A stretch of DNA of 64,000 bases from Polyangiaceae bacterium. Its GTDB lineage: Bacteria > Myxococcota_A > Polyangia > Polyangiales > Polyangiaceae. Made by a program: the position numbers and the translations under genes. Below the pieces are notes generated by a model. It saw only the letters and a program-made list of their open reading frames with translations. It did not search any database and was not told the DNA's origin. The number at the start of each line of letters is the position of its first letter. The stretch's first letter is position 1. Location of the stretch: the NCBI GenBank assembly GCA_046351455.1, contig JAXLYM010000003.1, positions 152,364-216,363 of the forward strand, given 5' to 3'. Shown here piece after piece: positions 18,431 through 58,917 of the stretch.

Positions 18431-18520
18431 GATGCCCACCCCGGGCGCGTGCTCGGCCTACCGGCCTCCGCGCGCGCCCCGCCCCTCCCAAATCGGCTGC
18501 TACGCAGCCTCAGGGAGGGG
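18431..18520. repeat. intergenic hairpin repeat element, inverted copy between convergent genes
   Basis: GATGCCCACCCCGGG...GCCCCTCCCAAATCGGC...CAGGGAGGGG has the same architecture as the 58694 copy. Confidence 0.5.
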
Positions 18521-41620: not shown

Positions 41621-43415
41621 GGTGCGGTGGCGGGAAGTGGCGCTCTACGCGCTGTTCGCGCTCGTACCCGCCGTGAGCCTCGCCGTGCTGGCGCTGTCGG
41701 CCGTCGGGAGCGCGGAGGCCGCCGCGCAACGCGAGGTCGCCGCCATGGTCGCGGGCGCCGCCGAACGATCGCAGCGCACCCTCGACGGCGCGCTTCGGGA
41801 CGCGGAGCGCGCGCTCGGCAAGAGCGCCCTCGACGACGAGGATCCGGCGCGCTTCGAGGACGATCTGCGCGGGCTCTCGCCGGTGTTCGCGGACGCCGTC
41901 GCGATCGCGCCGGACCGCTCGTTTCGATTCCCACGCGCGCAAGCCGCCGGGCCCGCGGTGCGCGACGCGGCGTGCGACGACGAGGGCGCGAAGCTCGCCG
42001 CCGCCACCTCCGCGGACGAACGGCGCGCGTCGCGAAAACGGCTGCTCTCAGCCTGTCGCGAGGCGCGCGCGGGCTCGGGGCGCATGTGGTGGCCGCTCGT
42101 CGCGATCGACGCGCTGCGGGACGGCGACGGCGATGGAGCGGCGCTCGCGGAGTGGATCGACGCGCACGCGGCCGCGCTCTCCCCGCTGGAACGGCGCGCG
42201 ACGGCGCTCGACGTGGAGGCGCTCCCGAACCTCGCGGACGAGGTCAAACAACGCATCGCCTCGGCCCTCGCGTCGCCCCGCTCACGGCGCGACGATCTGG
42301 CGCGGGAGCTCGACGCCCCCGAGGCGCGCGCGGCGATCGAGCGGGCGCAGCGATCTTCGCTCGTGGTGCCGTGGAAGAGCGCGACGGCCAGCGGCGCCGT
42401 GCGCGTGACTGGCGATCACACCGTGTGCGGGTACGTGGTGCACGAGGGCTCGCTCTCCGACGCGATCGCGCAGGGGAGGCTTGAAATCCCGGGCGATCTG
42501 CGCGCGGAGGTCGCGGCGAGCGGCGCGCTGCCCCGCGGCGTGCCGGCGGCCTCCGTCGAGGTGGCGCCTTCCTTGTTCGTGCGGTTCGCCCCGCGCGATC
42601 CGGGGATCGTCGCGCGGCAGGCGCGGCGGAGCCGTCTCGTGTTGGGCGGCGTGGGCATCGGATCCACCTTGTTCGCGTGCGTGCTCGCGTGGCTCCTGTA
42701 CCGGCGAATGCGCGCGGTGGAGCGCCTCAGCGATCTGCGGACCGATTTCGTGTCGGCCGTCTCGCACGAGCTGCGCACGCCGATCGCGTCGGTCCGGATG
42801 CTGGCGGAGCTGCTCGAAGAGGGCCGCGTGGAGGCGGGCGAACAGGCCGAGATCTACGAAGCGCTGGCCCGCGAAGCGCGCCGCCTCGGCGACACGGTGG
42901 ATCGACTGCTCGGCTTCAGTCGGATGGCCGCGGGGCGCTACAAGGTCGAGCGGCGCCGCGCGAACGTGGCGTCCGCGGTGACCGCCTCTCTCGCCGCCTT
43001 CGAGGAGCAGAATCCGGCCGGCCCGAGCGTGGAGCGCGATCTCGACGCCTCGATCGAAGCGGACATCGACGCAGGCCAGATCCAGCTCGCCGTCGACAAC
43101 CTCCTCGCGAACGCGAAGAAGTACGCGCCCGACGGCGGCCCGTACCGCGTGACCGTCGCGCGCCACGAGGGCGGCGTCGCGATCCGCGTGAAAGACAGCG
43201 GCCCCGGCGTCGAGCCGCGCGATCAAAAGCGCATCTTCGAGCCGTTCGAGCGCGCCGACGATCGCCTGAGCCGCGCCACGGAGGGCAGCGGAATCGGCCT
43301 CTCGCTGGTGGCGCACGTCGCGAGGGCGCACGGCGGCCGCGCCTGGGTCGAGAGCGCACCAGGCAAAGGCGCCACGTTCCACGTCTGGATTCCGGCCCCG
43401 GAGGGTACCCCATGA
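41607..43415 (+). CDS. sensor histidine kinase
   Basis: HisKA motif SHELRTPIASV and HATPase motifs (N box LLANAKKYAP, G boxes DSGPGV, GSGIGLSLV). Start uncertain (alternative ATG at 41745). Confidence 0.8.
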   Translation: MLSGKVRWREVALYALFALVPAVSLAVLALSAVGSAEAAAQREVAAMVAGAAERSQRTLDGALRDAERALGKSALDDEDPARFEDDLRGLSPVFADAVAIAPDRSFRFPRAQAAGPAVRDAACDDEGAKLAAATSADERRASRKRLLSACREARAGSGRMWWPLVAIDALRDGDGDGAALAEWIDAHAAALSPLERRATALDVEALPNLADEVKQRIASALASPRSRRDDLARELDAPEARAAIERAQRSSLVVPWKSATASGAVRVTGDHTVCGYVVHEGSLSDAIAQGRLEIPGDLRAEVAASGALPRGVPAASVEVAPSLFVRFAPRDPGIVARQARRSRLVLGGVGIGSTLFACVLAWLLYRRMRAVERLSDLRTDFVSAVSHELRTPIASVRMLAELLEEGRVEAGEQAEIYEALAREARRLGDTVDRLLGFSRMAAGRYKVERRRANVASAVTASLAAFEEQNPAGPSVERDLDASIEADIDAGQIQLAVDNLLANAKKYAPDGGPYRVTVARHEGGVAIRVKDSGPGVEPRDQKRIFEPFERADDRLSRATEGSGIGLSLVAHVARAHGGRAWVESAPGKGATFHVWIPAPEGTP

Positions 43416-43473
43416 GGCTTATCGAAACTGCCACTTTGATAGCTGGCGAGACAGCCACTCTGGAGGCCGCACG

Positions 43474-44199
43474 ATGAGCGCCGCCGAAGGACGTCAAGAG
43501 GTGGTGCTGGTCGTCGAGGACGATCCGACGTTGCGCCTCGGCCTCACCAAGACCCTTCGTTCGGAGGGGTTTCGCGTGGAGACGGCGAAGACGGGGCCCG
43601 AGGGCATCGAGATGGCGCGCGCGTCGCGGCCGGACCTCGTGTTGCTGGATGTCATGCTGCCGGGGCTCAATGGCTTCGAGGTGTGCGAGGAGCTGCGGCG
43701 GCTCGACGCGGATCTGCCCATCTTGATGGTGACGGCCAAAGGGGAGGAGCAGGACAAGGTCCGCGGGCTCAAGCTCGGGGCCGACGACTACATCGTGAAG
43801 CCGTTCGGGGTGGCCGAGCTGTGCGCCCGCGTGCACGCCGCCCTGCGCCGCAAGCGCGCCCGCGAGGCCGAGAGCACCCTGATCACGTTCGCGGACGTCA
43901 CGGTCGACTTCCGCGCTCACCGCGTCACCCGCGCGGGCGCCCCGGTGGAGATGACCGCGCTGGAGGTCCGCCTCCTCCGCTTCCTCATCGAGCGAGAAGG
44001 CACCTTGTTGCCGCGCCAGCGCATCCTCGACGGGGTGTGGGGCGCCGACTATTTCGGCACCGAGCGCACCGTCGACAACTTCGTGAACCGCCTGCGAACG
44101 AAGCTGGAAGCGGACCCGAAGAGGCCCTGTCACATCGTCACCGTCCGCGGCGCGGGATACCGCTTCTCGCGAACCCCCGATCCGCAAGACGGAGGATGA
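43474..44199 (+). CDS. OmpR-family two-component response regulator
   Basis: Receiver domain (VLVVEDD, DLVLLDVMLP, TAKG) plus winged-helix trans_reg_C domain (LLRFLIEREG...VRGAGYRF). Confidence 0.9.
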   Translation: MSAAEGRQEVVLVVEDDPTLRLGLTKTLRSEGFRVETAKTGPEGIEMARASRPDLVLLDVMLPGLNGFEVCEELRRLDADLPILMVTAKGEEQDKVRGLKLGADDYIVKPFGVAELCARVHAALRRKRAREAESTLITFADVTVDFRAHRVTRAGAPVEMTALEVRLLRFLIEREGTLLPRQRILDGVWGADYFGTERTVDNFVNRLRTKLEADPKRPCHIVTVRGAGYRFSRTPDPQDGG

Positions 44200-44202
44200 G
44201 GC

Positions 44203-44378
44203 CCCTCCCCTCCTTGAGGCCGTGAAACGGCCGATTTGGGAGGGGCGGACTGGCCGCCACTGGGAGGACAGAGTCCGCTCGGCGTAGGCGGAGCGGAGCC
44301 TGGCTCCGCGGAGTCCGTAGCTGAGTGGACGCCGCCCTCGACGTTGTGTTCGCGCAGCGAAGGCCGGGGGTGGGCACC
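44203..44378. repeat. intergenic hairpin repeat element, long copy (CCCCTCCC...GGCCGTGAAACGGCC...GGGAGGGG ... GGGGGTGGGCACC)
   Basis: Shares 30-40-nt cores with the copies at 58810..58892, 58694..58768 (inverted) and 18431..18520 (inverted). Nested stem-loops. Confidence 0.6.
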
Positions 44379-44512
44379 TTGGCTGTGCTTGATCTTTCTT
44401 CTGGCGGCCGGTGACACAACGGTGACATGGCGTGGATAAAACCAACACCTCGGTGATTCATCTTCGGTCCTGTCACGGGCGGTCACCCGCTAGCCCGCCC
44501 AGGAGGACTCTC

Positions 44513-45757
44513 ATGCTCCGTCTTCGCTCCATCGTCCCCGTGTTCGCTCTCGCGATCTCCGCCTCGGCCTGCAACCAGCCGGACGTGGACACGAGCACCC
44601 CCGACGACACCACCGCGGCGAAGCCCACCTCCACCGAAGGCGCCTCCGTCCGCGTGGAGCAGGCCGAGCGCGCGCTCGACGTGGGGCGCGACGTGGCCGG
44701 AGCCCGCGCGACGCTCGAAGGGATCGTGAAGGACACCAGCGTCCCCGCCGACGTCCGCGAGCGCGCGTCCTTCGCTCTCTCGCGCGCGTTCGAGGCGCAG
44801 AAGGACACGGAAGGGGCCATTCGTACCATCGAGTCGCTCCTCGCCGCGCACGCCGAAGACCGCAGCTGGCCCGCGCAGGAACAGGCCGAGAAGCGGCTCC
44901 GCAAGCTGCTCACCGGCAAGGAAGACAGGCCCTCTCCGCTCCGCCGGCCGGAGGAGAAGGTCGCGCCCGTCGCGCGCGCGCTGGCCGCGTATTTCCCGGC
45001 GAAGAAGGACGGGCCGACCGTGATCGATCTCCGGATGTTCGGCGGCGACATGGGGGTGTCCGAGGGGCTCGGCACGTTCCGCATCGGCGACGCCCTGCGC
45101 GAGATCGCCGACGAATCGTGCCCTCTTTGCGACACCAAGGTGAAGGTGCAGACGAGCTCTTCGCGCTCCGGCGGCTGGACGTCCATCCCCGGCGAGAGGC
45201 CGCGGCTCGCCAGCGCTCTGACCGTGTTCTACACGCACCTCGGCGACCCCATCCCCGCGCGGTACGACGACGTGCTGCCGGTGCCGATGAGCGAGGTGCT
45301 CGGTCACCTGCAGAAGGGCGAAGGCGTCGTGATCGCCAAGGAGCGGACGGGTGCGCCGCCTTCGATCCTGCTCGCGGCCCCGCGGGAGGCGCAGCTCGCG
45401 GAGGTGGAAGAGGCCTTCTCGAAGATGGCCAGTCTGCCGGGCTCGCTGACCGTCATCAAGGTGAGCGCCGGCCTCAAGAACGAGGAGATCCGGTCGACCA
45501 TGCGCGCGAACGGGATGCCCGCGTTCAAGAAGTGCTACGACGAGCTGCTCAAGCGCTCTTCGACCGCGACGGGGCGCACGGAGATCGCGTTCACGATCAA
45601 GGGCGACGGCGCGCTCGACGACGTGCACGTGGACGCGACGGACGGGCTCAAAGAGGGCACGTTCCAGCGCTGCATGGAGGCCGCGATGAAGACGATCTCG
45701 TTCCCGGCCACCAGCCAGTCGACGACCGTGAAATACCCGATGACGTTCACGCCGTGA
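44513..45757 (+). CDS. lipoprotein with C-terminal AgmX/PglI-like domain
   Basis: Lipobox ALAISASAC. C-terminal FKKCYDELLKRS...VHVDATDGLKEGTFQRCMEAAMKTISFPA...VKYPMTFTP resembles the myxobacterial AgmX/PglI C-terminal domain. Confidence 0.7.
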   Translation: MLRLRSIVPVFALAISASACNQPDVDTSTPDDTTAAKPTSTEGASVRVEQAERALDVGRDVAGARATLEGIVKDTSVPADVRERASFALSRAFEAQKDTEGAIRTIESLLAAHAEDRSWPAQEQAEKRLRKLLTGKEDRPSPLRRPEEKVAPVARALAAYFPAKKDGPTVIDLRMFGGDMGVSEGLGTFRIGDALREIADESCPLCDTKVKVQTSSSRSGGWTSIPGERPRLASALTVFYTHLGDPIPARYDDVLPVPMSEVLGHLQKGEGVVIAKERTGAPPSILLAAPREAQLAEVEEAFSKMASLPGSLTVIKVSAGLKNEEIRSTMRANGMPAFKKCYDELLKRSSTATGRTEIAFTIKGDGALDDVHVDATDGLKEGTFQRCMEAAMKTISFPATSQSTTVKYPMTFTP

Positions 45758-45895
45758 CAGGGGGCCTCTTCGGCGGGGGGCGTAGCGGGGGAGCACCCCC
45801 GCAACCCCCCCACAAAGAAGCGCCGCGAACCTCGATGTCGCCTGCACGAAGGAGAGGCTTGCTCGCACCTCGGATCTGAGGCAAAGCCGCGCGCG

Positions 45896-46756
45896 ATGCC
45901 TCGCCCGTTCGCGCCCGTCGACGCCGTTCCCCTCCCCGAACAACAAGGTCAGAGCTTCCCGCGCGCGGTGGAGCTGATGCAGCGCCTCCTCGCGCCCGAC
46001 GGCTGCCCGTGGGACCGCGAGCAGGACTTCAGCTCGCTGCGACGCTTCGTGCTGGAAGAGGCGTGCGAGGTCATCGACGCCATCGAGCACGGCGACAAGA
46101 AAGAGCTGTGCGGGGAGCTCGGAGACCTCCTGTTCCAGGTCGTCTTTCAGGCGGAGCTCGCGCGCAAAGAAGGCTCCTTCGGGCCCGACGACGTCGTGAA
46201 GGCCATCTGCGACAAGCTCGTTCGACGCCACCCGCACGTGTTCGCGGACACCACGATCGAGGGCGGCTCCACCGAGGTGCTGCAGAACTGGGAGCGCATC
46301 AAGGCCGCCGAGCGCGCCGCGAAGGGCGAAGCGGAGAAGGCAAAAGGCGTCCTCGGGAGCGTCGCGAAGAGCCTGCCGGCCCTCACGCGGGCCCAGCGCG
46401 TGGGCGAAAAGGTGGCGCGCGTCGGCTTCGACTGGCCGGACGCCCGCGGCTCCCGCGCGAAGGTCACCGAGGAATTGGGGGAGCTGGACCACGCCATCGA
46501 GTCCGGCGACGCCGATCGTATCGAGGCCGAGATGGGCGATGTGCTGTTCGCCCTCGTCAACCTGTCCCGGCACCTGCACCTGGACCCCGAAGGCGCCCTC
46601 CGCCGCACCATCGATAAGTTCACGCGCCGCTTCGAGATCGTCGAAAAGCGAGTGCACGAGAAGCACGGCGGCTGGCCCACCTCCTCCACCGATGAGCGCC
46701 TCTCTCTGGAAGAGCTGGACAGCTACTGGGAAGAAGCCAAGCGCGCCGGGATCTGA
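45896..46756 (+). CDS. mazG: nucleoside triphosphate pyrophosphohydrolase MazG (tandem MazG domains)
   Basis: EEAYEVLDA-like EEACEVIDAIE with ELGDLLFQVVF, and a second EELGELDHAIE with EMGDVLFALVNLSRHL. Confidence 0.9.
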   Translation: MPRPFAPVDAVPLPEQQGQSFPRAVELMQRLLAPDGCPWDREQDFSSLRRFVLEEACEVIDAIEHGDKKELCGELGDLLFQVVFQAELARKEGSFGPDDVVKAICDKLVRRHPHVFADTTIEGGSTEVLQNWERIKAAERAAKGEAEKAKGVLGSVAKSLPALTRAQRVGEKVARVGFDWPDARGSRAKVTEELGELDHAIESGDADRIEAEMGDVLFALVNLSRHLHLDPEGALRRTIDKFTRRFEIVEKRVHEKHGGWPTSSTDERLSLEELDSYWEEAKRAGI

Positions 46757-46947
46757 CGATTACGGACCGCCTGTCCCGAGCTGAAGCTCGACTGTCACGT
46801 TTTTACGCGATCGTGGCTTGTTGCGACACTTCGCAAGAGGCAGTCTCACGATCTGCCGCATATTTCAACGGCACGACTTTCGCACATTCCGAAGGAGGAA
46901 CAATGTGGGCCGCCGGGTCTCCGGCGGCGGGCTGGAGGTGAGTCATC

Positions 46948-47607
46948 ATGAAGAGCACTTCGCTTGGGCTCTCAATCGTGCTGGTGTCCGCGATGGCGGT
47001 CGCTTGCACTCAAGCGGAACAGAATGTCCAGGGCGGATCCAGCGGTGAGACCGGCGGATCAGGCCCCGGATTGACGATCTACCCCCTGCCCGACGGTGGA
47101 GGCGATACCGGAGGGAGCAACACGGGTGGAACCGATACGGGAGGCGCGCCGGGCGGACCCTGCGGAGGGACCGAGCACGCGCAATGCCTCGACGGCGAAT
47201 ACTGCGACTTCCCGTCCGACGTGTGTGGACAGGACGGCATCGACGGCACATGTACGCCGAAGCCGGACACGTGCTCCAACGAGTACAACCCGGTCTGCGC
47301 CTGCGACGGGCGGGTCTACGACAACATCTGCATCGCCCAGATGTCAGGCATCGACATCCAGATGCTGGGCGGCTGTCCCCCCGGGGACGGCCAGTTCCCC
47401 TGCGGCGCGGAGATCTGCACCGCGGCGGACGAATACTGCCAGATCGACCTGCCCACCGAGCCGGGCGATCCCACGGTGTACGCCTGCGCGCCTCTGCCGC
47501 CGAACTGCCAGGCCGAGGGCGCGACGTGCGCGTGCCTCGCGGACCTGCCGTGCGCGAAATCGTGCGAGCAGGACACGCAAGGCGGATTCACGCTGACGTG
47601 CCCTTGA
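46948..47607 (+). CDS. secreted Cys-rich lipoprotein with Kazal-type protease-inhibitor-like domain
   Basis: Lipobox AMAVAC. Segment CSNEYNPVCACDGRVYDNIC fits the Kazal C-x-P-V-C-x-x-D-G-x-x-Y-x-N-x-C pattern. About 20 further Cys. Confidence 0.7.
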   Translation: MKSTSLGLSIVLVSAMAVACTQAEQNVQGGSSGETGGSGPGLTIYPLPDGGGDTGGSNTGGTDTGGAPGGPCGGTEHAQCLDGEYCDFPSDVCGQDGIDGTCTPKPDTCSNEYNPVCACDGRVYDNICIAQMSGIDIQMLGGCPPGDGQFPCGAEICTAADEYCQIDLPTEPGDPTVYACAPLPPNCQAEGATCACLADLPCAKSCEQDTQGGFTLTCP

Positions 47608-47628
47608 GAGGGCGTGTCCGAGGAGGAT

Positions 47629-49656
47629 TCAGGGGAGGATGCCGAGCCGGCTGAAGAAGCCGTAGCTCCCGACTACGAGCGCCTTCATGTCCTCGAAGGT
47701 GCCCTGTTGCATCTCCATGCCGATGTCGAGCCGGGTCATCGTGCCGTTCGCGGACGCGTTCTCCGTGAGGACGACCGGCGTCATTCCCTTGTTCGGCAGG
47801 GACAGGAGCGACTGCGCGAGCTTCAGGTCGTCGGCGTTCATGAACTGGGGGCTGGCCAGCGCGAGGCCGGAGAGCAGATTGCCCACCTTGTCGCCCGGCA
47901 GAGAGGCCGACACGAAGCCTCCGAACATCTGCTTTCCGTTCTTCAGCGTGTCGAGCCCCGCGCGCGCGCCGAGCTGGCCCTTGTCGTCCGCCCCTTGTTT
48001 CACGGCGAGGAGGCGCTTCACGACCTCGTCCTTCGCGGCGCCGAACGCGAGCCACGAATTGTCGCCGTCGCCCATCACGAAGATGTAGAGCTTGGCGGTC
48101 ATCCTGGTCTGGCCTTGTTTCGAGTCGTCCTCGAACGGGGCCTCCAGGTTGGGGATCGAGATCTCGACTTGCTCCGCGCCCGCGCCGAGAGAGGCCGGGG
48201 CGCCGCCGGTCTTCACGACGGGGAGTGACTTCGCGTCCGTCGGCCCGAGCTCCTTCTTGAGAGAGGCCTGCACGGAAGCGGATTTGTACGCGTCGACCCA
48301 CGCTTTGAGCTGCTTCTTCATCGCGGCGGGGCCCTCGTCCGCGCCGATCAGCGTCCAGCCGACCATGCGCTGGAGCATCGCTTCGGAGGCCTTCACGGCG
48401 TTGGCCTTCGTGGTGTCCGCGGGCATCGGCACGTTCGTCGGGCCGTGCGACACGACCACGTGGGTGTCCTTGCCGAAGGGCAGATCGAGGAGCTGCGCGA
48501 TCTTCGTCCGGTCCGCGGCGCTCGCGAAATTCTCCGTCGCCATCGCGGCGCTGAGCAGATCGCGCGCCTTGCCGAGGACGCCCGTGAACCGCGACGAATC
48601 CACGCCGCGGCCGTAAAAGGCACCTTGGCTGTCCGCGGGCTGGCGCCAGTAAATCGCGGGCGGCGGGCCGCTGCGGGCCATCCGGTCGGTGAGCGTGCCG
48701 GCGATGAACGAGGACGTGCTGGCCAGATCCACGTTGGCGGTGGCGCGCAGACAGGCGCCGCGCGTCTCGGTCTTCGCGTCGATCGTGACGCGGTGGAGAT
48801 CGCCCCACAGCTTCGTCACGTCGTCCTGCACGGCGGAGGCCGCCTCGAACGCGAGGCCGTCGAAGCGCTTGTCGCCCGAGGAGCCGTACTCCGTGACGAG
48901 CGCCCCGGACAGGGCCTTCAGGTAATTGGGGCCGAGCGTCGGATACCGCTTCTTCAGCACGTCGAAGCGACCCTCGAACCGCATGTCGGAGGTGCCGAGA
49001 TCGACGCTCGGGGCGGTGCGCGCGAGATAAGGAGCCAGCGCCTCCAGGCTCTTTTCGCTCTCCGCGCACACGAGGCGGGCCGGGGTCGCGCCCGCGCTCG
49101 CCGCGACGCCGCACGCGATGCCGCGCTTGCCTTTCTGGCCCCACAGGCCCGGGGTGATCTCCGCCGGCTCCTGGCCTTCCGGGGTGATCGCGACCTTCGC
49201 GCTGTCCAGCGACGTGAGGCCCATCGCGACCGCGACCATCGGCGGACGCACTTTTGCGCCTGGATCCAGCGAGGCGACGACGTCCACCGGGGCGTCGAGG
49301 GCGACGAGGCTCGCGACCTTGCGCACGTCCACGGGGCGGCGGAGGACCTCTTGAAGGACCATGTTCACGGCCATGCGCGCGTTCACCTCGACGATGACCG
49401 GGGCCACGCCCGCGCACGACGCGAGGTTCGAGGCGGTGGCGATCGGGCTCTTCCAGCGGGCGATCGCGACGACGTCGCTCGGCTCCGCGACGGGGCTCAG
49501 GTCCGGACCGGCGGCGACGGAGGCGGTGGGGGCGGCCGTCTCGACCGGCTTCACCGAGGCCGTCGGCGTGGGCGGCGGCTGAGGAGCGGGGGCAGGGCCG
49601 CACCCGCAGAGTCCGAGGATGGCCAGCGAAACGGCGCCAAAACGGCTCTTGCGCAT
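47629..49656 (-). CDS. large lipoprotein of unknown function
   Basis: Lipobox AILGLCGC, Pro-rich linker, then a 640-aa globular region. Confidence 0.75.
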   Translation of the reverse strand: MRKSRFGAVSLAILGLCGCGPAPAPQPPPTPTASVKPVETAAPTASVAAGPDLSPVAEPSDVVAIARWKSPIATASNLASCAGVAPVIVEVNARMAVNMVLQEVLRRPVDVRKVASLVALDAPVDVVASLDPGAKVRPPMVAVAMGLTSLDSAKVAITPEGQEPAEITPGLWGQKGKRGIACGVAASAGATPARLVCAESEKSLEALAPYLARTAPSVDLGTSDMRFEGRFDVLKKRYPTLGPNYLKALSGALVTEYGSSGDKRFDGLAFEAASAVQDDVTKLWGDLHRVTIDAKTETRGACLRATANVDLASTSSFIAGTLTDRMARSGPPPAIYWRQPADSQGAFYGRGVDSSRFTGVLGKARDLLSAAMATENFASAADRTKIAQLLDLPFGKDTHVVVSHGPTNVPMPADTTKANAVKASEAMLQRMVGWTLIGADEGPAAMKKQLKAWVDAYKSASVQASLKKELGPTDAKSLPVVKTGGAPASLGAGAEQVEISIPNLEAPFEDDSKQGQTRMTAKLYIFVMGDGDNSWLAFGAAKDEVVKRLLAVKQGADDKGQLGARAGLDTLKNGKQMFGGFVSASLPGDKVGNLLSGLALASPQFMNADDLKLAQSLLSLPNKGMTPVVLTENASANGTMTRLDIGMEMQQGTFEDMKALVVGSYGFFSRLGILP

Positions 49657-49883
49657 GCGGGGCTTATATTGTGCAGTCCCGGGGCTGTCATGCGCAAAGC
49701 ACGGCAGACCGCGCCCACATCAACGCAAACGGCGCGCGCTGCCGCGCAAATGCTATGCGGATGAGCCCCTCGACGCAGGCCTCTTCGAAGAGTGTGACGG
49801 GAACGAAGAGCCGCGGAGAGGGTCGCAAGCGTCATCAGCACAAGCGCCGTTCCTTCTTGGACAAGTTGAGGCACGAAAGACCC

Positions 49884-50609
49884 ATGATCACGACCTCGCG
49901 ATCGTTTCTGTTCTGCGCACTTTCCCTCGCCGCGCCGCTCGTCGCGGTCGCGTGCAGCGACACCCCGTCCGCGAGCGCGCCGCCGCAGGCCACGGGGGAG
50001 ACCACGACGGCCGCGGCCGAGACGGGCATGACGGCCGCGCCGACGGCCACGGCGGAGGCGGCTCCGACGGCCGAGCCGACCGCGGCGCCCACCGCGAGCG
50101 CGACGGCGGCGGCGACGGCGGACAAGCCGAAGCCGAGCGGCCGCCCCCCGGTGCTCCTCGCGAATGCGAAGTCCATCACCGACACGTTCGGCTTCTCGCC
50201 GGGCGCCCGGCTGGAGCTCGGAGACAAGTCGGTCGCGACGTTGCGCATCCCCGAGGGTGCGTTCACGCAGGCGACGAACGTGACGTTCGAGCTCGACTCG
50301 AAGTGCAAGACGACGGGCCTCGTGATGGGCTCGGTCTACAAGGTGACGCCGACGTTGCCTCCCGCGACGACCCCGGCGTCGGTGGCCTCGAACAACGGCT
50401 CGCCGTTCGTGTTCATCATGCCGACGAACAAGAAGGCGGGCCTGAACATGGCGATTGGCACCTTCGGCAAGGACGCGAAGGGCAACGACACGATGACGTT
50501 CAAGATCGTCGCCCCGAAGTCGACCGACGACGCGAACGGAACAGCCACCTTCGAGCTGGACACGCTGCCCGACGGGTGCCTGCACCTGACCACGAAGAAC
50601 CCGAGCTAA
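49884..50609 (+). CDS. lipoprotein with Ala/Thr-rich linker
   Basis: Start set at MITTSRSFLFCALSLAAPLVAVAC (lipobox). The upstream part of the track ORF is not protein-like. Confidence 0.65.
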   Translation: MITTSRSFLFCALSLAAPLVAVACSDTPSASAPPQATGETTTAAAETGMTAAPTATAEAAPTAEPTAAPTASATAAATADKPKPSGRPPVLLANAKSITDTFGFSPGARLELGDKSVATLRIPEGAFTQATNVTFELDSKCKTTGLVMGSVYKVTPTLPPATTPASVASNNGSPFVFIMPTNKKAGLNMAIGTFGKDAKGNDTMTFKIVAPKSTDDANGTATFELDTLPDGCLHLTTKNPS

Positions 50610-51559
50610 CTCGATAGCTCCACGTACGTGATGGGCAGATCGCGGAGCCACGTGCGCTGGCGCCGGACGAAGGTGCGAGTCGCGCGGATCACGGCGGTGG
50701 CCAGATCCGGGTCCGGCGGACTGCCCTCCACGAACGACTGCACCTCTCGGTAGCCGACCGACTTCATCGCTCGCGACTCCCCATAACCGCGGGCGAGCAG
50801 ATCCTTCACCTCGTCGATCCAGCCTGTCTCCAGCCATGTCCGCGTGCGCCGCGCGACGCGCTCGTCGAGGTCCTCGGGCGCGCGGCGGGGGGCCACGAGA
50901 TGTGCCTTGTGGCGCGGCTCCCGAAAGCCGTGCTCCGACTGCCACTCTGTCATCGTGCGGCCGGAGAGCGCGTGCACCTCCAGCGCGCGGCTCACGCGGA
51001 CGAGATCGTTCGGCGACAGCCGCTCCGCAGACGCGGGATCGATCGCCGCGAGCCTCGCGTGGAGCGCCGCGCGACCTTCGCTCTCCGCGATGCGCTGGTG
51101 CTCGGCGCGGATCCGCGCGTCGCCGGGCGGCATCGGCGCGAGGCCCCACACGAGCGCCTTCACCCACAAGAACGTGCCGCCGCAGACGATCGGCAAGCGG
51201 CCGCGCGCGCGGATGTCTCGGATCGCCTCTTCGGCGAGATCGGCCCAGCGCTGGGCTTCGATCGGCTCCAGCGGATCCGCGATGTCGAGGAGGTGGTGCG
51301 GCGCGCGCGCGCGCTCCTCGGCGGTCGGCTTGCCGGAGCCGATGTCGAAGCCGCGGTAGATCTGCACGCTGTCGGCGCCGATGATCTCGCCTCCGAGCCT
51401 CTCCGCGAGCCGGATCGCGAGCTCCGTCTTCCCGCTCGCGGTGGGTCCGACGACGACGAGCAGCGTGTCCGCGGGCGGCGCTTCGATCGCGGTCCACGGG
51501 GGCGCGCCCTCGGGAAACGAAGCGGCGCGCGCGCGCGACATGGGTCGAGGGCGGCTCAT
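50606..51559 (-). CDS. miaA: tRNA dimethylallyltransferase
   Basis: P-loop GPTASGKT, DSVQIYRG, DIG and CGGTFLW motifs match the MiaA family. ATGA overlap with the mutL stop. Confidence 0.9.
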   Translation of the reverse strand: MSRPRPMSRARAASFPEGAPPWTAIEAPPADTLLVVVGPTASGKTELAIRLAERLGGEIIGADSVQIYRGFDIGSGKPTAEERARAPHHLLDIADPLEPIEAQRWADLAEEAIRDIRARGRLPIVCGGTFLWVKALVWGLAPMPPGDARIRAEHQRIAESEGRAALHARLAAIDPASAERLSPNDLVRVSRALEVHALSGRTMTEWQSEHGFREPRHKAHLVAPRRAPEDLDERVARRTRTWLETGWIDEVKDLLARGYGESRAMKSVGYREVQSFVEGSPPDPDLATAVIRATRTFVRRQRTWLRDLPITYVELSS

Positions 51560-53577
51560 CTCCGGCCGACGCGCAGCTCGAGCTCCGCGTAGCTCACGCG
51601 GTGCACGACGGGGCGGCCGTGCGGGCAGTGACCTGCGAAGTCCACCTCGTCGAGCGCCTGCAGCAGCGCCGCCGCCTCGTCCGGCGGGATGCGCTCGCCC
51701 GCGCGCAGCGAGCCGTGGCACGCCATCGTCGCCAGCGCGAGATCGATCGCCCCCGAGAACGCGCGCTCGCCTGCGTGGCTCACCTCGGCGAGGAGATCGC
51801 GCACGAGGCGCTCCGGCGAGGCGCGCGCGAGCAACTGCGGCACCGCGTGCACCGCGACGTGCGTGGGGCCCGCGGGGCGCAGCTCGAAGCCGGCCGCGAG
51901 CACCGCCTCCTCGCCCTCCTCGACGAGCGCGACCTCGCCGGCCGACACGCTCACGATCACCGGGAAAAGAAGCGTTTGCCGCGCGACCGCGCGCGAGCCG
52001 TACGCCGCGCGGAGGCGGTGGTACGTCACGCGCTCGGCCGCCGCGTGCTGATCGAGGATGTAGAGGCCGTCGTCGCCCTCGCAGAGGAGGAACGTGGCGC
52101 GGAGCTGCGCGAGGTACCGCAGCGATCCGAACGGCGTGCGCTGCTCCATCGTGAGGTTCGCGACGGGCGTGGAGGCGTCGGGCTCCGGGTGACGGCCGTA
52201 CGGGATCGGCGGCGGACGCGGCGGGAGGCCCGCGCGGCTCGCGTCGAAGAGGAGCCCCGCGAGCAGAGGGTCGCGCGGGACGGCGTCGCGATGCGGCCCC
52301 GATTCGCCTTGTTTCGAAGGCGACTCCTGCGTGCGCTCGGCCCCTTCGATCGGCATCACCGCGCTCATCGGAGGCGCCGGCGTGCCATCGGAGATCGGAG
52401 ACGCGGGCCTCTCGGTCGCGGTCGGAGACGCAGGCATCCCGCCGGAGATCGGAGGCCCCTCGGTCGAGCCTCCGGACCACACCCACGCGGCGCTCTCGCT
52501 CGGCACCTCGGCGGGCTTCTGTTTGTAGTGGTGCTGCGCGCCGGGGAGGCGCGACTCGGGCAGGCCGAACGCGCGCGTCAGCGCCTCCGCGAGGATGCGG
52601 TACATCGCGTCGGCGGCCGCGCGGCCGTCCGCGAAGCGCACCTCGGCCTTCTGCGGGTGCACGTTCACGTCGACGAGGTGCGCCGGCAAATCCAGGTGCA
52701 CGACGCCGATCGGGTAGCGGCCCGGCTCCAGCACGCTGCCGTACGCGAGGGCCACGCTGCGCGCGAGCGAGCGGTCCTTCACCACGCGACCGTTCACGAG
52801 GAGCGTGAGGCCGACGGCGCCGGATCGCGCGCGCTCCGGCCGCGACAGGAGCGCCTCCACGCGCAGCGGACCGCGCTCGCCGCGGCACAGCGCGAGCTCC
52901 TCGCCCGCGTGGATCTGGCGCGCGCGCTCTTCGCGCGAGGACGCCCGCAGCCACTCGCGCGCCACGCGCCCGTCGCGCGACAACGTCACCGAGACGTGGT
53001 GCGCGCCGAGCGCCATCGACTGCACGACGTCGGTCACGTTCGCGCTCTCGGTCGCGGGCGCGCGCAGGAATTTGCGGCGCGCCGGCACGTTGAAGAAGAG
53101 GTCGCGCACCTCCACCACCGTGCCCACCGCGACGCCGATCGGCGCGATCGCGGCGGGGCCGCCGCCTTCCACGCGCACCTCGGTTCCTTCCGCGTCCTCG
53201 GCGCGGCGCGTGCGCAGCGCGAGCCGGCTCACGGACGCGATGCTCGGCAGCGCCTCCCCGCGGAACCCGAAGCTCTCGACCGCGGCGAGATCGTCGAGCG
53301 ATTCGATCTTGCTCGTGGCGTGTCGCACGAGCGCGAGCGTCGCGTCCTCGCGATCCATGCCGACGCCGTCATCGGCCACGCGCACGAGCCCGATGCCGCC
53401 GCCTTCGATGTCGACGCGGACCTTACGAGCGCCGGCGTCGAGCGCGTTCTCGACGAGCTCCTTCACGACGCTCGCGGGCCGCTCCACGACCTCGCCCGCG
53501 GCGATCTGGTTCGCGAGATCGTCGGGCAGCACCCGCACCTTGCGGCGCGCGTTCGGCGGATTCGGCGTGGACGACAC
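51556..53577 (-). CDS. mutL: DNA mismatch repair protein MutL
   Basis: GHKL ATPase N-terminus (LANQIAAGEVVERPASVVKELVENALDAG) and a C-terminal dimerisation domain (CPHGRP). Confidence 0.95.
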   Translation of the reverse strand: MSSTPNPPNARRKVRVLPDDLANQIAAGEVVERPASVVKELVENALDAGARKVRVDIEGGGIGLVRVADDGVGMDREDATLALVRHATSKIESLDDLAAVESFGFRGEALPSIASVSRLALRTRRAEDAEGTEVRVEGGGPAAIAPIGVAVGTVVEVRDLFFNVPARRKFLRAPATESANVTDVVQSMALGAHHVSVTLSRDGRVAREWLRASSREERARQIHAGEELALCRGERGPLRVEALLSRPERARSGAVGLTLLVNGRVVKDRSLARSVALAYGSVLEPGRYPIGVVHLDLPAHLVDVNVHPQKAEVRFADGRAAADAMYRILAEALTRAFGLPESRLPGAQHHYKQKPAEVPSESAAWVWSGGSTEGPPISGGMPASPTATERPASPISDGTPAPPMSAVMPIEGAERTQESPSKQGESGPHRDAVPRDPLLAGLLFDASRAGLPPRPPPIPYGRHPEPDASTPVANLTMEQRTPFGSLRYLAQLRATFLLCEGDDGLYILDQHAAAERVTYHRLRAAYGSRAVARQTLLFPVIVSVSAGEVALVEEGEEAVLAAGFELRPAGPTHVAVHAVPQLLARASPERLVRDLLAEVSHAGERAFSGAIDLALATMACHGSLRAGERIPPDEAAALLQALDEVDFAGHCPHGRPVVHRVSYAELELRVGRR

Positions 53578-53614
53578 GTGGCCTCCGCGCGCTGGTTACC
53601 ACGACGAGAGCGGG

Positions 53615-54208
53615 TTAGGGCTCTTCTTCCGCGCCGTCGGCCGCGGCGGCGACCTCTTCGAAGTACGTCTTCGTGCGGGGGCGCGTGAGGGCCAGCGCTG
53701 CCAAGAGCGGCACGCCCAGCTCGAAGAACGCGAGCTTCGTGCGCTCCACCCAGAAGCCCCAGAACTGCATGAAGGCGACCGGCCCCTCGGGCACCGTGGG
53801 GTCCTGGATGATGACCGCCGCGCGCGAGGCCATGTCGATCCATGCGCCGCGCGCATGTCGGAGAAGCAAGAATTCGAGGAGAGCGAAAGCTGCGTTGAGG
53901 CCGAGGGCCTGGAGGGCGAACGTGCGCGAGGATGGGCGGCCGACGAGGACCAGCGTGCTCGCGAGGACGAGCGTGCTCGCGAGGAGCGCGCGCGCCACGC
54001 TCAATGGGAAGGCGAGATTTGGGATCGCGCCGAGCACCACGAGCCGCGCCGACATCAGAACTGGGACGAATACGTCGTGGAACTCGCCCGCGCCTGCGCC
54101 GCTCCGCGCGACCGCGTCGACGTCCGGGAACGAGCCTTCGCGAAGGATCATCGCCGTGGAGCCGCCCGCGAGGAGGCTCTGGACCCCGAGGATCCACACG
54201 AGCACCAT
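53615..54208 (-). CDS. hypothetical membrane protein (4-5 TM helices) upstream of mutL; contains 18-bp in-frame tandem duplication (ASTLVL x2)
   Basis: Hydrophobic ORF. Start set at MVLVWILGV; the upstream part of the track ORF is antisense to the sigma-factor gene. Duplication CAGCGTGCTCGCGAGGAC x2 at about 53948..53983. Confidence 0.45.
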   Translation of the reverse strand: MVLVWILGVQSLLAGGSTAMILREGSFPDVDAVARSGAGAGEFHDVFVPVLMSARLVVLGAIPNLAFPLSVARALLASTLVLASTLVLVGRPSSRTFALQALGLNAAFALLEFLLLRHARGAWIDMASRAAVIIQDPTVPEGPVAFMQFWGFWVERTKLAFFELGVPLLAALALTRPRTKTYFEEVAAAADGAEEEP

Positions 54209-54428
54209 CGCCGCGACGAGATAAAACGGACGCTGGACGTGCCGCTCATGCAAAGGTGCCGGTCGTTCTGATTCCACGATCGCCTCAGCAGGGGCACTTA
54301 GCACGCTTCGGAGCGGCCGCGTACCGCCACGGTCCTCGATCGAGCGCCGGATCGCGACTCGACGCGCCTCGGCCCCTGGCATCCCGCTCGGAACGTGGAT
54401 AGAAAAGCAGACTCTGCGAGGTCGAAGC

Positions 54429-55733: not shown

Positions 55734-55788
55734 CGGCGGACCGGGGGGTGTGAGGCGGTGACAGGCCTCCTCGACGGGAGGCCCCTCG

Positions 55789-56379
55789 TCAGTAGCAGCT
55801 CGTGCGCGGCTCGAAGCGGCCGTGGTAGTTCCAGCCCCAGTTGGAGTCCCACTGGCCGTGCGACTCCGCAGCGACCTCGATGTCCCAGGCGTTCTGACCG
55901 CTGTAGTCGTTGAAGGCCCAGAAGAAGATGTCCTGCTCGTCCGCGCTCGGGCCCTCGCAGGCCCAGTTTCCGGGCGATCCGCCGTTCGCGAGGTAGGTGT
56001 CGCAGGTCGTCGAAGGACCGTAGTAGCTCGGGCAGATGAGGCACGCTCGCGGGCCCGCGTTCAGGTACACATACGCGTCGTTGTTCGCGCCCTGACTGGC
56101 ATTGACGAAGATGTCACTCCCGTTCAGGCGGATGTAGAGGTGAATCTCGTTGTCCGGGTAATACGCCCGCAGATAACCGCGGTACGAGACGGTGAGCTGC
56201 GCGTTGTGGCCGTAGGGGTTCTTCGTGTCCTTGATCAGCTCGAACGGGCCGGTCGTCTGCGTGTCGCGCGCAGAGCACATCGGGTAATCCGGCGGGTAGA
56301 AGGAAGCGCCGCTGTCCTCCGTGACGGAGACGGCGACGAGGGCACAGGCGGCGGCGACGGCGAAGGTGGAGGCTTTCAT
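55789..56379 (-). CDS. secreted hypothetical protein, Trp-rich C-terminus
   Basis: Start set at MKASTFAVAAACALVAVSV (signal peptide). The upstream extension is Arg/Gly garbage. Confidence 0.55.
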   Translation of the reverse strand: MKASTFAVAAACALVAVSVTEDSGASFYPPDYPMCSARDTQTTGPFELIKDTKNPYGHNAQLTVSYRGYLRAYYPDNEIHLYIRLNGSDIFVNASQGANNDAYVYLNAGPRACLICPSYYGPSTTCDTYLANGGSPGNWACEGPSADEQDIFFWAFNDYSGQNAWDIEVAAESHGQWDSNWGWNYHGRFEPRTSCY

Positions 56380-58671: not shown

Positions 58672-58693
58672 GACATCTTCCGAAATCGCAAGC

Positions 58694-58768
58694 GATGCCC
58701 ACCCCCGGCCTTCGCTACGCGAAGTCCGCCCCTCCCAAATCGCTCTCTTCGTTCGCGAAGGGAGGGGA
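58694..58768. repeat. intergenic hairpin repeat element, inverted short copy
   Basis: GATGCCCACCCCCGG...GCCCCTCCCAAATCG...GGGAGGGG is the reverse complement of motifs in the 44203 and 58810 copies. Confidence 0.55.
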
Positions 58769-58809
58769 CCATTCCGTGATCTTGAACGGTGTTCCGAATG
58801 ACGCAACGT

Positions 58810-58892
58810 CCCCTCCCTGAGGCCGTGAAACGGCCGATTTGGGAGGGGCAGGCCGCGCGCAGCGAAGCGAGCACGGACTGGGGGTGGGCACC
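58810..58892. repeat. intergenic hairpin repeat element, direct short copy
   Basis: CCCCTCCCTGAGGCCGTGAAACGGCCGATTTGGGAGGGGC ... GGGGGTGGGCACC is nearly identical over ~40 nt to 44207..44246. Confidence 0.6.
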
Positions 58893-58917
58893 ATCCCGCG
58901 ATCCGAATCGGCTTGGA

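What the first reader, a model, noticed from the sequence alone, without database searches (positions are those of the whole stretch)
44203..44378. Family of GC-rich intergenic hairpin repeat elements (at least four copies in 64 kb)
Near-identical 30-40-nt cores occur at 44203..44246 and 58810..58850 (CCCCTCCC-TGAGGCCGTGAAACGGCCGATTT-GGGAGGGG, a hairpin containing a nested GGCCG-TGAAA-CGGCC stem-loop). An associated arm GGGGGTGGGCACC follows at variable distance. Inverted versions occur at 58694..58768 and 18431..18520. All copies sit in intergenic DNA at gene 3' ends, three of four between convergent genes. The 44203 copy carries a ~110-bp structured insert with a further palindrome (GGAGCGGAGCCTGGCTCCGCGGAGTCC). 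This looks like a REP/MITE-like element family, or a conserved terminator/small-RNA module specific to this lineage.
Basis: seen in the sequence. Interest (0 to 1): 0.5.

Follow-up and report, generated by a model that had tools for sequence, protein, structure and literature searches.

The report
Two-hairpin palindromic repeat family of Polyangiaceae
The four GC-rich hairpins are real copies of a previously undescribed, roughly 85-base non-coding repeat that is scattered through the giant genomes of Polyangiaceae (Sorangium and relatives). It behaves like the REP-type "junk or helper" palindromes of other bacteria, but it lacks their usual transposase partner.

Summary
The window holds exactly four copies: A 44202-44378 (+), B 58810-58892 (+), C 58694-58767 (-) and D 18431-18520 (-).

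Each unit has four parts:
- an invariant stem, CCCCTCCC/GGGAGGGG;
- inside that stem, TGAG, a variable hairpin and GATTT;
- a second variable hairpin;
- an invariant tail, GGGGGTGGGCAYC.

The same unit occurs in 29 Polyangiaceae/Polyangiales assemblies, including Sorangium, Byssovorax and Minicystis. Both variable hairpins keep their pairing through compensatory changes. Most of their loops are C(GNA)G triloops, on one strand only.

Copies sit just after stop codons. They are enriched between convergent genes and almost absent between divergent genes, and they show no orientation bias relative to transcription. One filled/empty orthologous pair shows a clean insertion of about 88 nt, and 49 copies show no target-site duplication.

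No Rfam family matches, and I found no paper describing the element. A RAYT-like transposase clade is not associated with it (0 of 84 loci). Unexpectedly, an IS5-family insertion sequence carries the unit just inside both of its ends; about 9 of 55 copies are of this kind.

Best reading: a REP/BIME-like, non-autonomous palindromic element. It is tolerated, or used as a hairpin, at gene 3' ends. The enzyme that moves it is unknown.

The parts
58810..58892 (+). Copy B, the archetype unit. P1 5' strand CCCCTCCC 58810-58817; TGA 58818-58820; inner hairpin P1a GGCCGT-GAA-ACGGCC 58821-58835; GATTT 58836-58840; P1 3' strand GGGAGGGG 58841-58848; second hairpin P2 58849-58879; tail GGGGGTGGGCACC 58880-58892.
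   Evidence: Sequence. Folds. Covariance-model score 89.3 bits, E 6e-12.
58694..58767 (-). Copy C, inverted, short form. Tail (reverse complement) 58694-58706; P2 (CGGACTTCGCG-TAG-CGAAGGCCG, reverse complement) 58707-58728; P1 strands 58729-58736 and 58760-58767; degenerate P1a. The tail lies 22 nt after the stop codon of the + gene that ends at 58671.
   Evidence: Covariance-model score 65.3 bits.
58694..58892 (.). Head-to-head inverted pair C+B with a 42-nt spacer between the P1 stems. It forms a REPIN/BIME-like 199-bp palindrome that fills most of the spacer between the convergent genes 56545-58671(+) and 58918-60186(-).
   Evidence: the repeat finder I2. As single-stranded DNA it folds into one long hairpin: -70.8 kcal/mol, z = -8.4, 0 of 200 shuffles as stable.
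18431..18520 (-). Copy D. Tail (reverse complement) 18431-18443; P2 18444-18481; P1 strands 18482-18489 and 18513-18520; P1a GGCTGC-GTA-GCAGCC. It fills the 116-nt spacer between the convergent genes 16988-18424(+) (beta-helix protein) and 18541-(-) (AMP-dependent ligase). It lies 6 nt and 20 nt from the two stop codons.
   Evidence: Covariance-model score 76.2 bits. The orthologous site is filled in L048 and empty in L056 and L050.
44202..44378 (+). Copy A, long form. Duplicated P1 5' strand CCCCTCCCCTCCT 44202-44214; P1a 44218-44232 (identical to that of B); GATTTGGGAGGGG 44233-44245; expanded P2 44246-44365; tail 44366-44378. It starts 2 nt after the TGA (44197-44199) of the response-regulator gene. 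The next gene starts near 44513.
44252..44348 (+). Unique 98-nt self-folding insert inside the P2 of copy A. It contains the palindrome GGAGCGGAGCC-TGG-CTCCGCGGAGTCC.
   Evidence: The alignment with copy C places it between CGGACT and TTCGCGCAGCGAAGGCCG. It folds as its own long hairpin. BLAST finds no other copy in the window or in 57 loci.

Best explanation
The four sequences belong to a family of small non-coding palindromic DNA units. Units are 68-176 nt long, with a median of 85. The family is specific to Polyangiaceae/Polyangiales and works like the REP/BIME class of bacterial interspersed repeats.

Shown:
- Each unit is a discrete module with sharp ends, from CCCCTCCC to GGGTGGGCAYC.
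- It has an invariant C4TC3 / G3AG4 / G5TG3 triad.
- It has two hairpins whose sequences drift while pairing is kept.
- It is present or absent at orthologous sites as a clean block of about 88 nt, with no target-site duplication.
- It sits in the short spacers just after stop codons, most often between convergent genes.
- It occurs singly, as inverted pairs and as partial tandems.
- It is also a fixed subterminal component of both ends of an IS5-family insertion sequence.

Inferred:
- It spreads as a non-autonomous element through a single-stranded hairpin intermediate. The folded strand is the one reading CCCCTCCC to GGGTGGGCA, because only that strand carries the very stable C(GNA)G triloops and the G.A mismatches.
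- An enzyme I could not identify recognises the invariant motifs.
- Copies persist at gene 3' ends because insertions there are harmless, or useful as strong hairpins that work in either orientation. Such hairpins could block read-through between convergent genes, protect mRNA 3' ends, or insulate the insertion sequence from outside transcription.
For: Family and distribution:
Of these, 42 are true units that carry the tail, from 29 assemblies of Sorangium, Byssovorax, Minicystis and Polyangiaceae/Polyangiales MAGs.
- The window itself comes from a Polyangiaceae MAG.
- Density is 4 copies in the 64-kb window, about 9 extra copies in about 310 kb of flanks, and 1 in about 37 kb of unselected Polyangiaceae sequence.

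Structure:
- With a manual structure on 48 copies, 85.5% of cells are paired, against 74.5% in shuffles (0 of 500 reach the observed value) and 35-49% when partners are slid.
- 16 pairs have double-sided changes. All 6 P1a pairs and 10 of 16 P2 pairs covary.
- C(GNA)G triloops make up 27 of 52 P1a loops and 34 of 53 P2 loops on the + strand; none of the complementary type occur.
- Imperfections are conserved at fixed positions: C.A at columns 72-100, G.A at 77-97 and a purine-purine mismatch at 68-105.

Constraint: the D orthologues in the window and in L048 (flanking protein 97% identical) differ at 3 of 93 nt, all in loops or bulges, while the adjacent spacers cannot be aligned.

Mobility:
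- L048 is filled, CCTTCGAAggcg[unit]cCCAATCA. L056 is empty, CCTTCGAAactgCCAATCT. In L050 the two syntenic genes overlap and there is no unit.
- No target-site duplication of 2-9 bp appears at any offset in 49 copies; at most 2-3 copies match.

Context:
- Among copies with both neighbours called, 15 are convergent, 18 tandem (10 versus 8 by orientation) and 2 divergent. The background is 39, 126 and 39.
- About 15 of 55 copies lie within 25 nt of a stop codon.

Link to the insertion sequence:
- An IS5-family transposase (NF033581, 252 bits against a cutoff of 140) is bracketed by inverted units in L014 (87 nt, 99% identical) and in the contiguous L041+L037.
- The true tips, CTAG|CAGGGTGGTGAAAAAG, lie 30-95 nt outside the tails.
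- End-specific hairpin sequences are shared between MAGs.

Not already known: Rfam gives no match and no description turned up in the papers searched.
Against: - The mobilising enzyme is unidentified.
- Only one filled/empty pair was found, and at 91% protein identity the junctions are uncertain by about 4 nt.
- Some identical copies within a Sorangium genome share flanks. They sit behind paralogous toxin/immunity-like cassettes, so they reflect segmental duplication rather than transposition.
- P1 is invariant partly because the search pattern demanded it, so its pairing has no covariation support.
- Copy number per genome was never counted directly, because the scan was truncated.
- Invariance of the unpaired motifs across genera is stronger than usual for REP families. 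It could instead point to a host function.
- No expression or termination data exist.
Confidence: 0.55

Rival explanations
1. The units are ends of the IS5-family insertion sequence. Free-standing copies would then be MITEs or solo-end relics, made and moved by the IS5 DDE transposase.
For: - About 9 of 55 copies (L005, L010, L014 x2, L019, L034, L037, L040, L041) lie 1-4 nt from the transposase stop, or about 80 nt from its start, with the IS tip ..CACCCTGCTAG 30-95 nt beyond the tail.
- L010:5502-5951 is a 450-bp MITE of this kind with CTAG on both sides.
- The pyrimidine-rich stretch after the tail of free copies resembles the spacer between tail and tip in the insertion sequence.
Against: - None of the other 46 copies, including all four in the window, has a tip within 200 nt even with 2 mismatches allowed.
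- There is no target-site duplication at any offset.
- The filled/empty pair shows that only the unit itself was inserted.
- A DDE transposase needs two tips, and most copies are single.
Confidence: 0.13
2. The unit is above all a functional cis-acting transcript element. It would act as a lineage-specific terminator in either orientation, or as a 3'-UTR stabiliser or insulator. Selection would maintain it, and it would be copied along with genes, cassettes and insertion sequences rather than moving on its own.
For: - It is placed right after stop codons and is enriched between convergent genes.
- It sits at the 3' end of the IS transposase gene and of the toxin/immunity-like cassettes.
- Canonical hairpin-plus-T-run terminators are not enriched in the window: 4 against 8.4 expected, and 15 against 8.7.
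- A T/C-rich tract follows the tail: pyrimidine fraction 0.65 against 0.52, p = 2e-6, with T reaching 0.54 per position in a 68%-GC window.
- Structure is conserved and orthologous copies are under constraint.
Against: - No U-run directly follows either stem; 13 G-rich bases intervene.
- A terminator does not need invariant unpaired motifs or an identical sequence at hundreds of loci.
- The loop and mismatch asymmetry marks one strand, yet the unit is used in both orientations relative to upstream genes (10 versus 8).
- The clean insertion at an orthologous site shows that it arrives as a block.
Confidence: 0.15
3. It is a canonical REP/REPIN mobilised by a RAYT (REP-associated tyrosine transposase).
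For: - The unit is extragenic and palindromic, it forms inverted pairs, and it lacks a target-site duplication.
- Y1_Tnp/RAYT-like genes exist in these genomes. Two of them (L014:1756-2328, L010:6408-7001) lie 85-460 nt from a unit.
Against: - In both of those cases the nearby unit belongs to an IS5 copy or MITE, and it lies on one side of the gene only.
- Four RAYT-like genes on long Polyangiaceae contigs have no unit within 3 kb, with filters off. One of them has its own, different 50-nt inverted repeats.
- 80 further RAYT-relative loci (275 kb) give 0 hits.
- There is no GTAG-type 5' tag.
- The unit is 2-4 times longer than a REP.
- The NCBIfam RAYT model scores below its cutoff.
Confidence: 0.07
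4. It is a double-stranded or structured DNA site for a conserved host protein, such as a nucleoid-associated or supercoiling-related factor. It might involve a switch between hairpin and G-quadruplex formed by the G3AG4 and G5TG3 tracts.
For: - The three C3NC3/G3NG3 motifs are invariant across genera while the hairpins drift.
- Four G3 tracts are always preserved, even in tail variants (L007, L019, L028).
- The unit is present at both ends of the insertion sequence, where host-factor sites are common (established knowledge of IS biology).
Against: - No protein partner is identified.
- A plain duplex binding site would not select for compensatory changes in the stems or for GNA loops.
- ViennaRNA predicts only local two-layer quadruplexes in the tail and cannot model the long-loop form.
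Confidence: 0.08
5. The similarity between GC-rich spacers is due to chance.
For: None.
Against: - There are four exact 13-mers, each with the two other motifs in the right order.
- Covariance-model E-values run from 1e-5 to 6e-12.
- The same unit occurs in 29 other assemblies.
Confidence: 0.01

Closest known systems
REP / BIME elements of Enterobacteria and REPINs of Pseudomonas (RAYT-associated)
   Same: - Small non-coding imperfect palindromes, confined to extragenic DNA and especially to gene 3' ends.
- They occur singly and as inverted pairs (window C+B, 199 bp).
- Mismatches are conserved and distinguish the two strands.
- No target-site duplication.
- Inherited within a lineage.
   Different: - 68-176 nt with two hairpins and a G-rich tail, rather than one 20-40-nt hairpin.
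- No GTAG/CGTC tag.
- The invariant motifs are shared across genera.
- The RAYT-like genes I tested are not flanked by it (0 of 84).
MITEs derived from insertion sequences, such as Correia/NEMIS of Neisseria
   Same: - Short, non-autonomous and intergenic, with the potential to act on transcripts.
- A genuine MITE form with IS5 tips and CTAG exists (L010:5502-5951).
   Different: - Most copies, including all four in the window, lack the IS tips and any duplication and are single units. A DDE transposase cannot move them as they stand.
IS200/IS605-type ends and their miniature derivatives (PATEs), moved as single-stranded DNA by Y1 HUH transposases
   Same: - Strand-specific hairpins near both ends of a short unit.
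- Insertion without duplication.
- Structure conserved through compensatory change.
   Different: - There is no strongly conserved target tetranucleotide 5' of the unit; only a weak G/C-C/G-A/G preference appears.
- No partner Y1 transposase has been found.
- Orientation relative to replication could not be tested.
IS5-family insertion sequences (CTAG target)
   Same: - The transposase next to 9 of the copies meets the NCBIfam IS5 model.
- Its tips and CTAG target are typical of the family.
   Different: - To my knowledge, a roughly 90-nt structured module at both subterminal positions, with end-specific and covarying hairpins, is not a described feature of IS5-family elements.
Intrinsic (Rho-independent) terminators
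   Same: - GC-rich hairpins directly downstream of stop codons, followed somewhere by a pyrimidine/T-rich tract.
   Different: - No U-run abuts a stem.
- Sequence, and not only shape, is conserved.
- The same strand polarity is used in both orientations.

Membership tests
REP/REPIN-RAYT system | Short (20-40 nt) imperfect palindrome with a conserved 5' tetranucleotide tag (GTAG or CGTC type) | tested here: not met
   The unit is 68-176 nt (median 85) and has two hairpins. The conserved unpaired motifs are TGAG, GATTT and GGGGGTGGGCAYC. There is no GTAG.
REP/REPIN-RAYT system | Many extragenic copies per genome | tested here: inconclusive
   All 55 copies are extragenic or overlap only stop-codon regions. 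Density is about 1 per 15-40 kb in the sequence sampled.
REP/REPIN-RAYT system | Inverted pairs (REPIN/BIME arrangement) | tested here: met
   Head-to-head pairs occur in the window (C+B) and at L031. A tail-to-tail pair occurs in L001 and a partial tandem in L047. Pairs are a minority of copies.
REP/REPIN-RAYT system | A RAYT gene flanked on both sides by the repeat | tested here: not met
   No unit lies near 4 + 80 RAYT-like loci. The two adjacencies seen (L014, L010) are one-sided and belong to an IS5 copy or MITE. Only one RAYT-like clade was tested.
MITE of the IS5-family insertion sequence | Terminal inverted repeats matching the tips of the parent insertion sequence | tested here: not met
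   The tip ..CACCCTGCTAG was found beyond 7 copies only. It is absent (2 or fewer mismatches, 200 nt) from the rest, including all window copies.
MITE of the IS5-family insertion sequence | Target-site duplication (CTAG or another fixed length) | tested here: not met
   No duplication of 2-9 bp at any offset in 49 copies. The filled/empty junctions show none.
Intrinsic terminator | GC-rich stem-loop followed within 0-2 nt by a U-run | tested here: not met
   P2 is followed by GGGGGTGGGCAYC. The T/C-rich tract starts about 15 nt after the stem. The consensus scan flags only a weak tail hairpin at 44371-44391.
Any described RNA family (Rfam 15) | Covariance-model match at the gathering score | tested here: not met
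   No hits at gathering score across the window. Only sub-threshold chance matches to eukaryotic miRNA/lncRNA models at 58650-58930.
IS200/IS605-type single-strand elements (PATE) | Insertion without duplication, 3' of a conserved target tetranucleotide, strand-specific, with a Y1 transposase partner | tested here: inconclusive
   The absence of duplication and the one-strand hairpin features are met. The target motif is only weak. No partner was found, and replication-strand bias cannot be tested with the sequence held.

The most novel reading that the evidence does not exclude
The unit is a new class of structured mobile module.
- It would be a two-hairpin single-strand element defined by a C4TC3 / G3AG4 / G5TG3 triad.
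- The triad could switch between hairpin, long-range helix and G-quadruplex.
- A conserved Polyangiaceae factor that is neither a RAYT nor the IS5 transposase would recognise and insert it without duplication.
- An IS5-family insertion sequence would have recruited it secondarily as a subterminal insulator or host-factor site.
Probability: 0.15. Interest if true: 0.7.

Novelty: new variant of a known kind. Interest (0 to 1): 0.5.

Why it matters
Polyangiaceae have the largest bacterial genomes known (12-16 Mb), and their repeat content is essentially undescribed.

- **A test of the REP model.** This family probably numbers hundreds of copies per genome. It keeps sequence motifs across genera, keeps structure by compensation, and inserts without duplication, yet it has no RAYT nearby. 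It therefore tests the current view that REP-like repeats depend on RAYTs.
- **An unreported pairing.** To my knowledge, a fixed subterminal position in a DDE-type IS5 element is an unreported relationship between an insertion sequence and a palindromic repeat.
- **Practical uses.** The units explain some assembly breaks. They are ready-made markers for strain typing. They are also candidate portable hairpin terminators or insulators for engineering Sorangium, where genetic parts are scarce.

Tried and rejected
- **Known RNA family.** Rfam at gathering score and at E <= 10 gave nothing meaningful.
- **Small peptide on the reverse strand.** I considered a start at the NTG in G-NTG-CCCACC. I rejected it because all four bases occur at N and hairpin lengths vary by non-multiples of three.
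- **Sigma-54 promoter in the tail (TGGGCA..).** The spacing and sequence do not fit the GG-N10-GC consensus (from the sequence).
- **Choosing the folded strand by minimum free energy.** This was not informative: 32 versus 22 copies, p = 0.06. Mismatch types are mixed, with 59 A.C against 7 G.T but many G.A. Loop type was what decided it.
- **G-quadruplex.** ViennaRNA models only short-loop quadruplexes, so this is untestable here.
- **RAYT association.** One suggestive contig (L014) led to 84 further loci, all negative. The last contig look-up returned no DNA.
- **Phage carriage.** No pattern hits in viral contigs.
- **P2-type motif on its own** (GCGCAG..GAGCAC). The 5 hits in the window are all inside coding sequence and form no hairpin, so they are treated as codon-composition chance.
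- **Identical copies in one Sorangium genome as proof of transposition.** Rejected, because they share flanks and sit in duplicated cassettes.
- **Replication-strand bias.** With 8 positions in complete genomes and an unverified origin, no conclusion is possible.

Full report
**Observation.**
- The 13-mer GATTTGGGAGGGG occurs four times in the window with no mismatch, twice on each strand.
- Each occurrence is preceded 18-23 nt upstream by CCCCTCCC.
- Each is followed 23-121 nt downstream by G(G/C)GGGTGGGCA(C/T)C.
- The repeat finder recovers the same relationships on its own.
- A covariance model run with filters off finds these four copies and no others in the 64 kb.

The copies are A 44202-44378(+), B 58810-58892(+), C 58694-58767(-) and D 18431-18520(-). 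B, C and D lie between convergent genes. A starts 2 nt after the stop codon of an OmpR-type response regulator.

**Anatomy.** I write the unit in the orientation of A and B. In order, it consists of:
- stem P1, CCCCTCCC paired with GGGAGGGG;
- inside P1, TGA(G), a variable 5-7-bp hairpin (P1a) and GATTT;
- one base;
- a second, irregular hairpin P2 of 20-40 nt (120 nt in A);
- the tail GGGGGTGGGCAYC.

A is a mosaic. Its P1a is identical to that of B. Its P2 is that of C, interrupted after CGGACT by a unique 98-nt self-folding insert. C and B lie head to head, 42 nt apart, and as single-stranded DNA they fold into one 199-nt hairpin (z = -8.4).

**Distribution.** I scanned one genome per species for CCCCTCCC-N(10-40)-GATTTGGGAGGGG.
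- 42 blocks carry the complete unit with the tail. They come from 29 assemblies of Sorangium (six strains), Byssovorax, Minicystis rosea and Polyangiaceae/Polyangiales/Myxococcota MAGs.
- The 5 blocks from other phyla, or lacking the tail, are chance matches.
- The window's own source is a Polyangiaceae MAG, shown by a 100% protein match on a 626-kb contig.
- A model built from 48 copies finds 55 copies in the 377 kb held. These include diverged copies the pattern missed.
- No copy occurs in viral contigs.
- Density in the sequence sampled is about one per 15-40 kb. That would mean hundreds per 12-16-Mb genome, but this was not counted directly.

**Structure is under selection.** I scored a manually defined structure on the 48-copy alignment.
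- 85.5% of cells are standard pairs, against 74.5% in column shuffles (0 of 500 reach the observed value) and 35-49% when partners are slid by 1-3 columns.
- All six P1a pairs and 10 of 16 P2 pairs show changes on both sides.
- P1 never varies, partly because the search pattern demanded it, so it has no covariation support.
- Three imperfections sit at fixed positions: C.A, G.A and a purine-purine mismatch.
- Of the hairpin loops, 27 of 52 (P1a) and 34 of 53 (P2) are C(GNA)G triloops on this strand. None are the complementary type.

From established knowledge, GNA triloops and sheared G.A pairs make unusually stable DNA and RNA mini-hairpins. This marks the CCCCTCCC-to-GGGTGGGCA strand as the one selected to fold. 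Whole-unit free energies do not separate the strands.

The orthologous D copies in the window and in a relative (flanking protein 97% identical) differ at only 3 of 93 nt, all in loops or bulges. The few spacer bases beside them cannot be aligned.

**Context.** I used a GC3-based gene caller.
- Copies with both neighbours called are convergent 15, tandem 18 and divergent 2. The background in the same loci is 39, 126 and 39.
- In tandem contexts the two orientations are equally frequent (10 versus 8). This argues against a strand-specific role in the upstream gene's transcript.
- About 15 of 55 copies lie within 25 nt of a stop codon on at least one side. Several fill the whole spacer between convergent genes.
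- Sequence upstream of the head is unconserved.
- Downstream of the tail there is a pyrimidine- and T-rich stretch of about 20 nt (0.65 against 0.52, p = 2e-6).
- No shared promoter-like flank exists.

**Mobility.**
- The D site is filled in the window and in L048.
- It is empty in L056 (flanking protein 91% identical). There the spacer reads CCTTCGAAactgCCAATCT, against CCTTCGAAggcg[CCCCTCCC...GGGCATC]cCCAATCA in L048.
- In L050 (flanking proteins 81% and 69% identical) the same two genes overlap and there is no unit.
- The unit therefore arrives as a clean block of about 88 nt, with exactly the boundaries that conservation defines and with no duplication.
- Across 49 copies, no duplication of 2-9 bp is detectable at any offset.

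Some identical Sorangium copies are not independent insertions. They follow paralogous ~350-aa orphan genes that sit behind PT-TG pre-toxin proteins. These are duplicated toxin/immunity-like cassettes. The same gene family precedes the unit in Byssovorax cruenta.

**Who moves it?** Contig L014 looked like a REP-RAYT locus. It has two inverted units and a Y1_Tnp gene whose relatives JGI names RayT. The link did not hold.
- The two units bracket an IS5-family transposase gene (NF033581 above cutoff).
- They lie inside that element. The true tips, CTAG|CAGGGTGGTGAAAAAG, are 40-85 nt further out.
- The RAYT-like gene lies outside the insertion sequence.
- Four RAYT-like genes on long contigs have no unit within 3 kb. 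One of them has its own, different inverted repeats.
- 80 more RAYT-relative loci from metagenomes (275 kb) have none.
- This test covers one RAYT-like clade only.

**The insertion-sequence link.** This link is solid.
- A second complete copy, about 1.4 kb, spans the contiguous L041+L037.
- End fragments occur in M. rosea (L005) and in L019, L034 and L040.
- L010 carries a 450-bp MITE with CTAG on both sides.
- Upstream-end and downstream-end units differ in hairpin sequence but keep the structure, and each type is shared between MAGs. The unit is therefore a long-standing functional part of that insertion sequence.
- The other 46 copies, including all four in the window, have no tips. The DDE transposase cannot be what spreads them.

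**Interpretation.** The family works like REP/BIME repeats. It consists of discrete, non-coding, structured palindromes that insert without duplication, accumulate at gene 3' ends, and form singles and inverted pairs. It fails the defining tests for a REP-RAYT system, for a MITE and for a canonical intrinsic terminator (see the membership table).

I consider a single-strand, hairpin-recognising mechanism the most likely mode of spread. This is inferred from the one-strand loop and mismatch signature, the sharp ends and the lack of duplication.

I consider the most likely reason for persistence to be a hairpin role at transcript 3' ends that works in either orientation: blocking read-through, protecting 3' ends, or insulating the insertion sequence. 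This is inferred from placement, from its use at both IS ends and after cassette genes, and from the scarcity of canonical terminators.

The cross-genus invariance of the C4TC3/G3AG4/G5TG3 triad and of TGAG/GATTT is not explained by either idea. It implies a conserved trans-acting partner that remains unknown.

**Prior knowledge.** No Rfam family matches. Full-text searches, and checks of the main REP/RAYT surveys, found no description of such repeats in Sorangium or other myxobacteria. Subscription-only literature was not searchable.

**Verdict.** This is a real and well-defined feature: a new variant of the REP-like class of interspersed palindromes. It is of moderate interest (0.5) for three reasons: its unusual conservation, the missing mobilising enzyme, and the unreported pairing with an IS5-family element.

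Noticed in passing
L014:185-1671 (whole contig DATJYG010000521.1); also L041:7718-8000 + L037:1-1133: Complete copies, about 1.4-1.5 kb, of an IS5-family insertion sequence. Tips are CTAG|CAGGGTGGTGAAAAAG, and the repeat unit sits in inverted orientation just inside both ends. The transposase stop codon lies 1-4 nt from the unit, or inside it.
   Followed up: yes
L010:5502-5951: A 450-bp non-autonomous derivative (MITE) of that insertion sequence, with CTAG on both sides. It carries one intact and one degenerate unit. A RAYT-like ORF (6408-7001, -) lies about 460 nt beyond its tip.
   Followed up: partly
L015:4796-8000, L047:2719-5978, L025:2373-3413, L027:313-3245; B. cruenta L042/L007: In Sorangium and Byssovorax the unit follows, by 52-62 nt in Sorangium, a family of ~350-aa orphan proteins (54-56% identical to each other, no Pfam or NCBIfam hit). 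In L015 and L047 these genes sit behind proteins with weak PT-TG pre-toxin hits; L027 carries a PT-TG protein followed by a separate 384-aa ORF. They look like duplicated polymorphic-toxin/immunity cassettes.
   Followed up: partly
L007, L011, L042, L046 (B. cruenta short contigs): A conserved leader of about 200 nt, then the unit, then a CT-rich tract, then a Shine-Dalgarno sequence and the ATG of a paralogous secreted-protein gene. This composite repeat probably breaks the assembly.
   Followed up: partly
L055:2581-2630 and 3739-3788: A Byssovorax RAYT-like gene is bracketed by its own 50-nt inverted repeats (AATGCCGGGCG..CGCCCGGCATT). This is a different, more classical REP-type hairpin in the same lineage.
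   Followed up: no
L053:2227-2298 and 2574-2690: (TTTCGGC)n-like and (TGAGAC)n microsatellites in the 840-nt gap upstream of another RAYT-like gene.
   Followed up: no
L043:5270-5340: The 23-nt tail segment GGCCGGGGAGGGCAGGTGCAAGC is repeated three times in tandem at the end of a diverged unit. The P1 of that unit has an uncompensated change (CCCCGCCC).
   Followed up: no
window 58918-60186 (-): This ORF has a TerB/DUF533-like C-terminus (Pfam). It found no homologue at E <= 1e-30 among 8000 word-sharing candidates. It is probably a low-complexity or fast-evolving N-terminal region.
   Followed up: no
window 60393-60488; 18199-18282; 8887-9016: In-frame tandem duplications within coding sequence, with periods of 48 nt and 42 nt, plus GGTG-rich 36-42-nt repeats. 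These are low-complexity Gly/Thr/Pro-rich protein segments and are unrelated to the hairpin family.
   Followed up: no
window 10000-29999 and 42000-61999: Canonical hairpin-plus-T-run terminator matches are no more frequent than in shuffled sequence (4 against 8.4; 15 against 8.7). No sigma-70 consensus promoters were found. Transcription signals in this organism are evidently not of the E. coli type.
   Followed up: no
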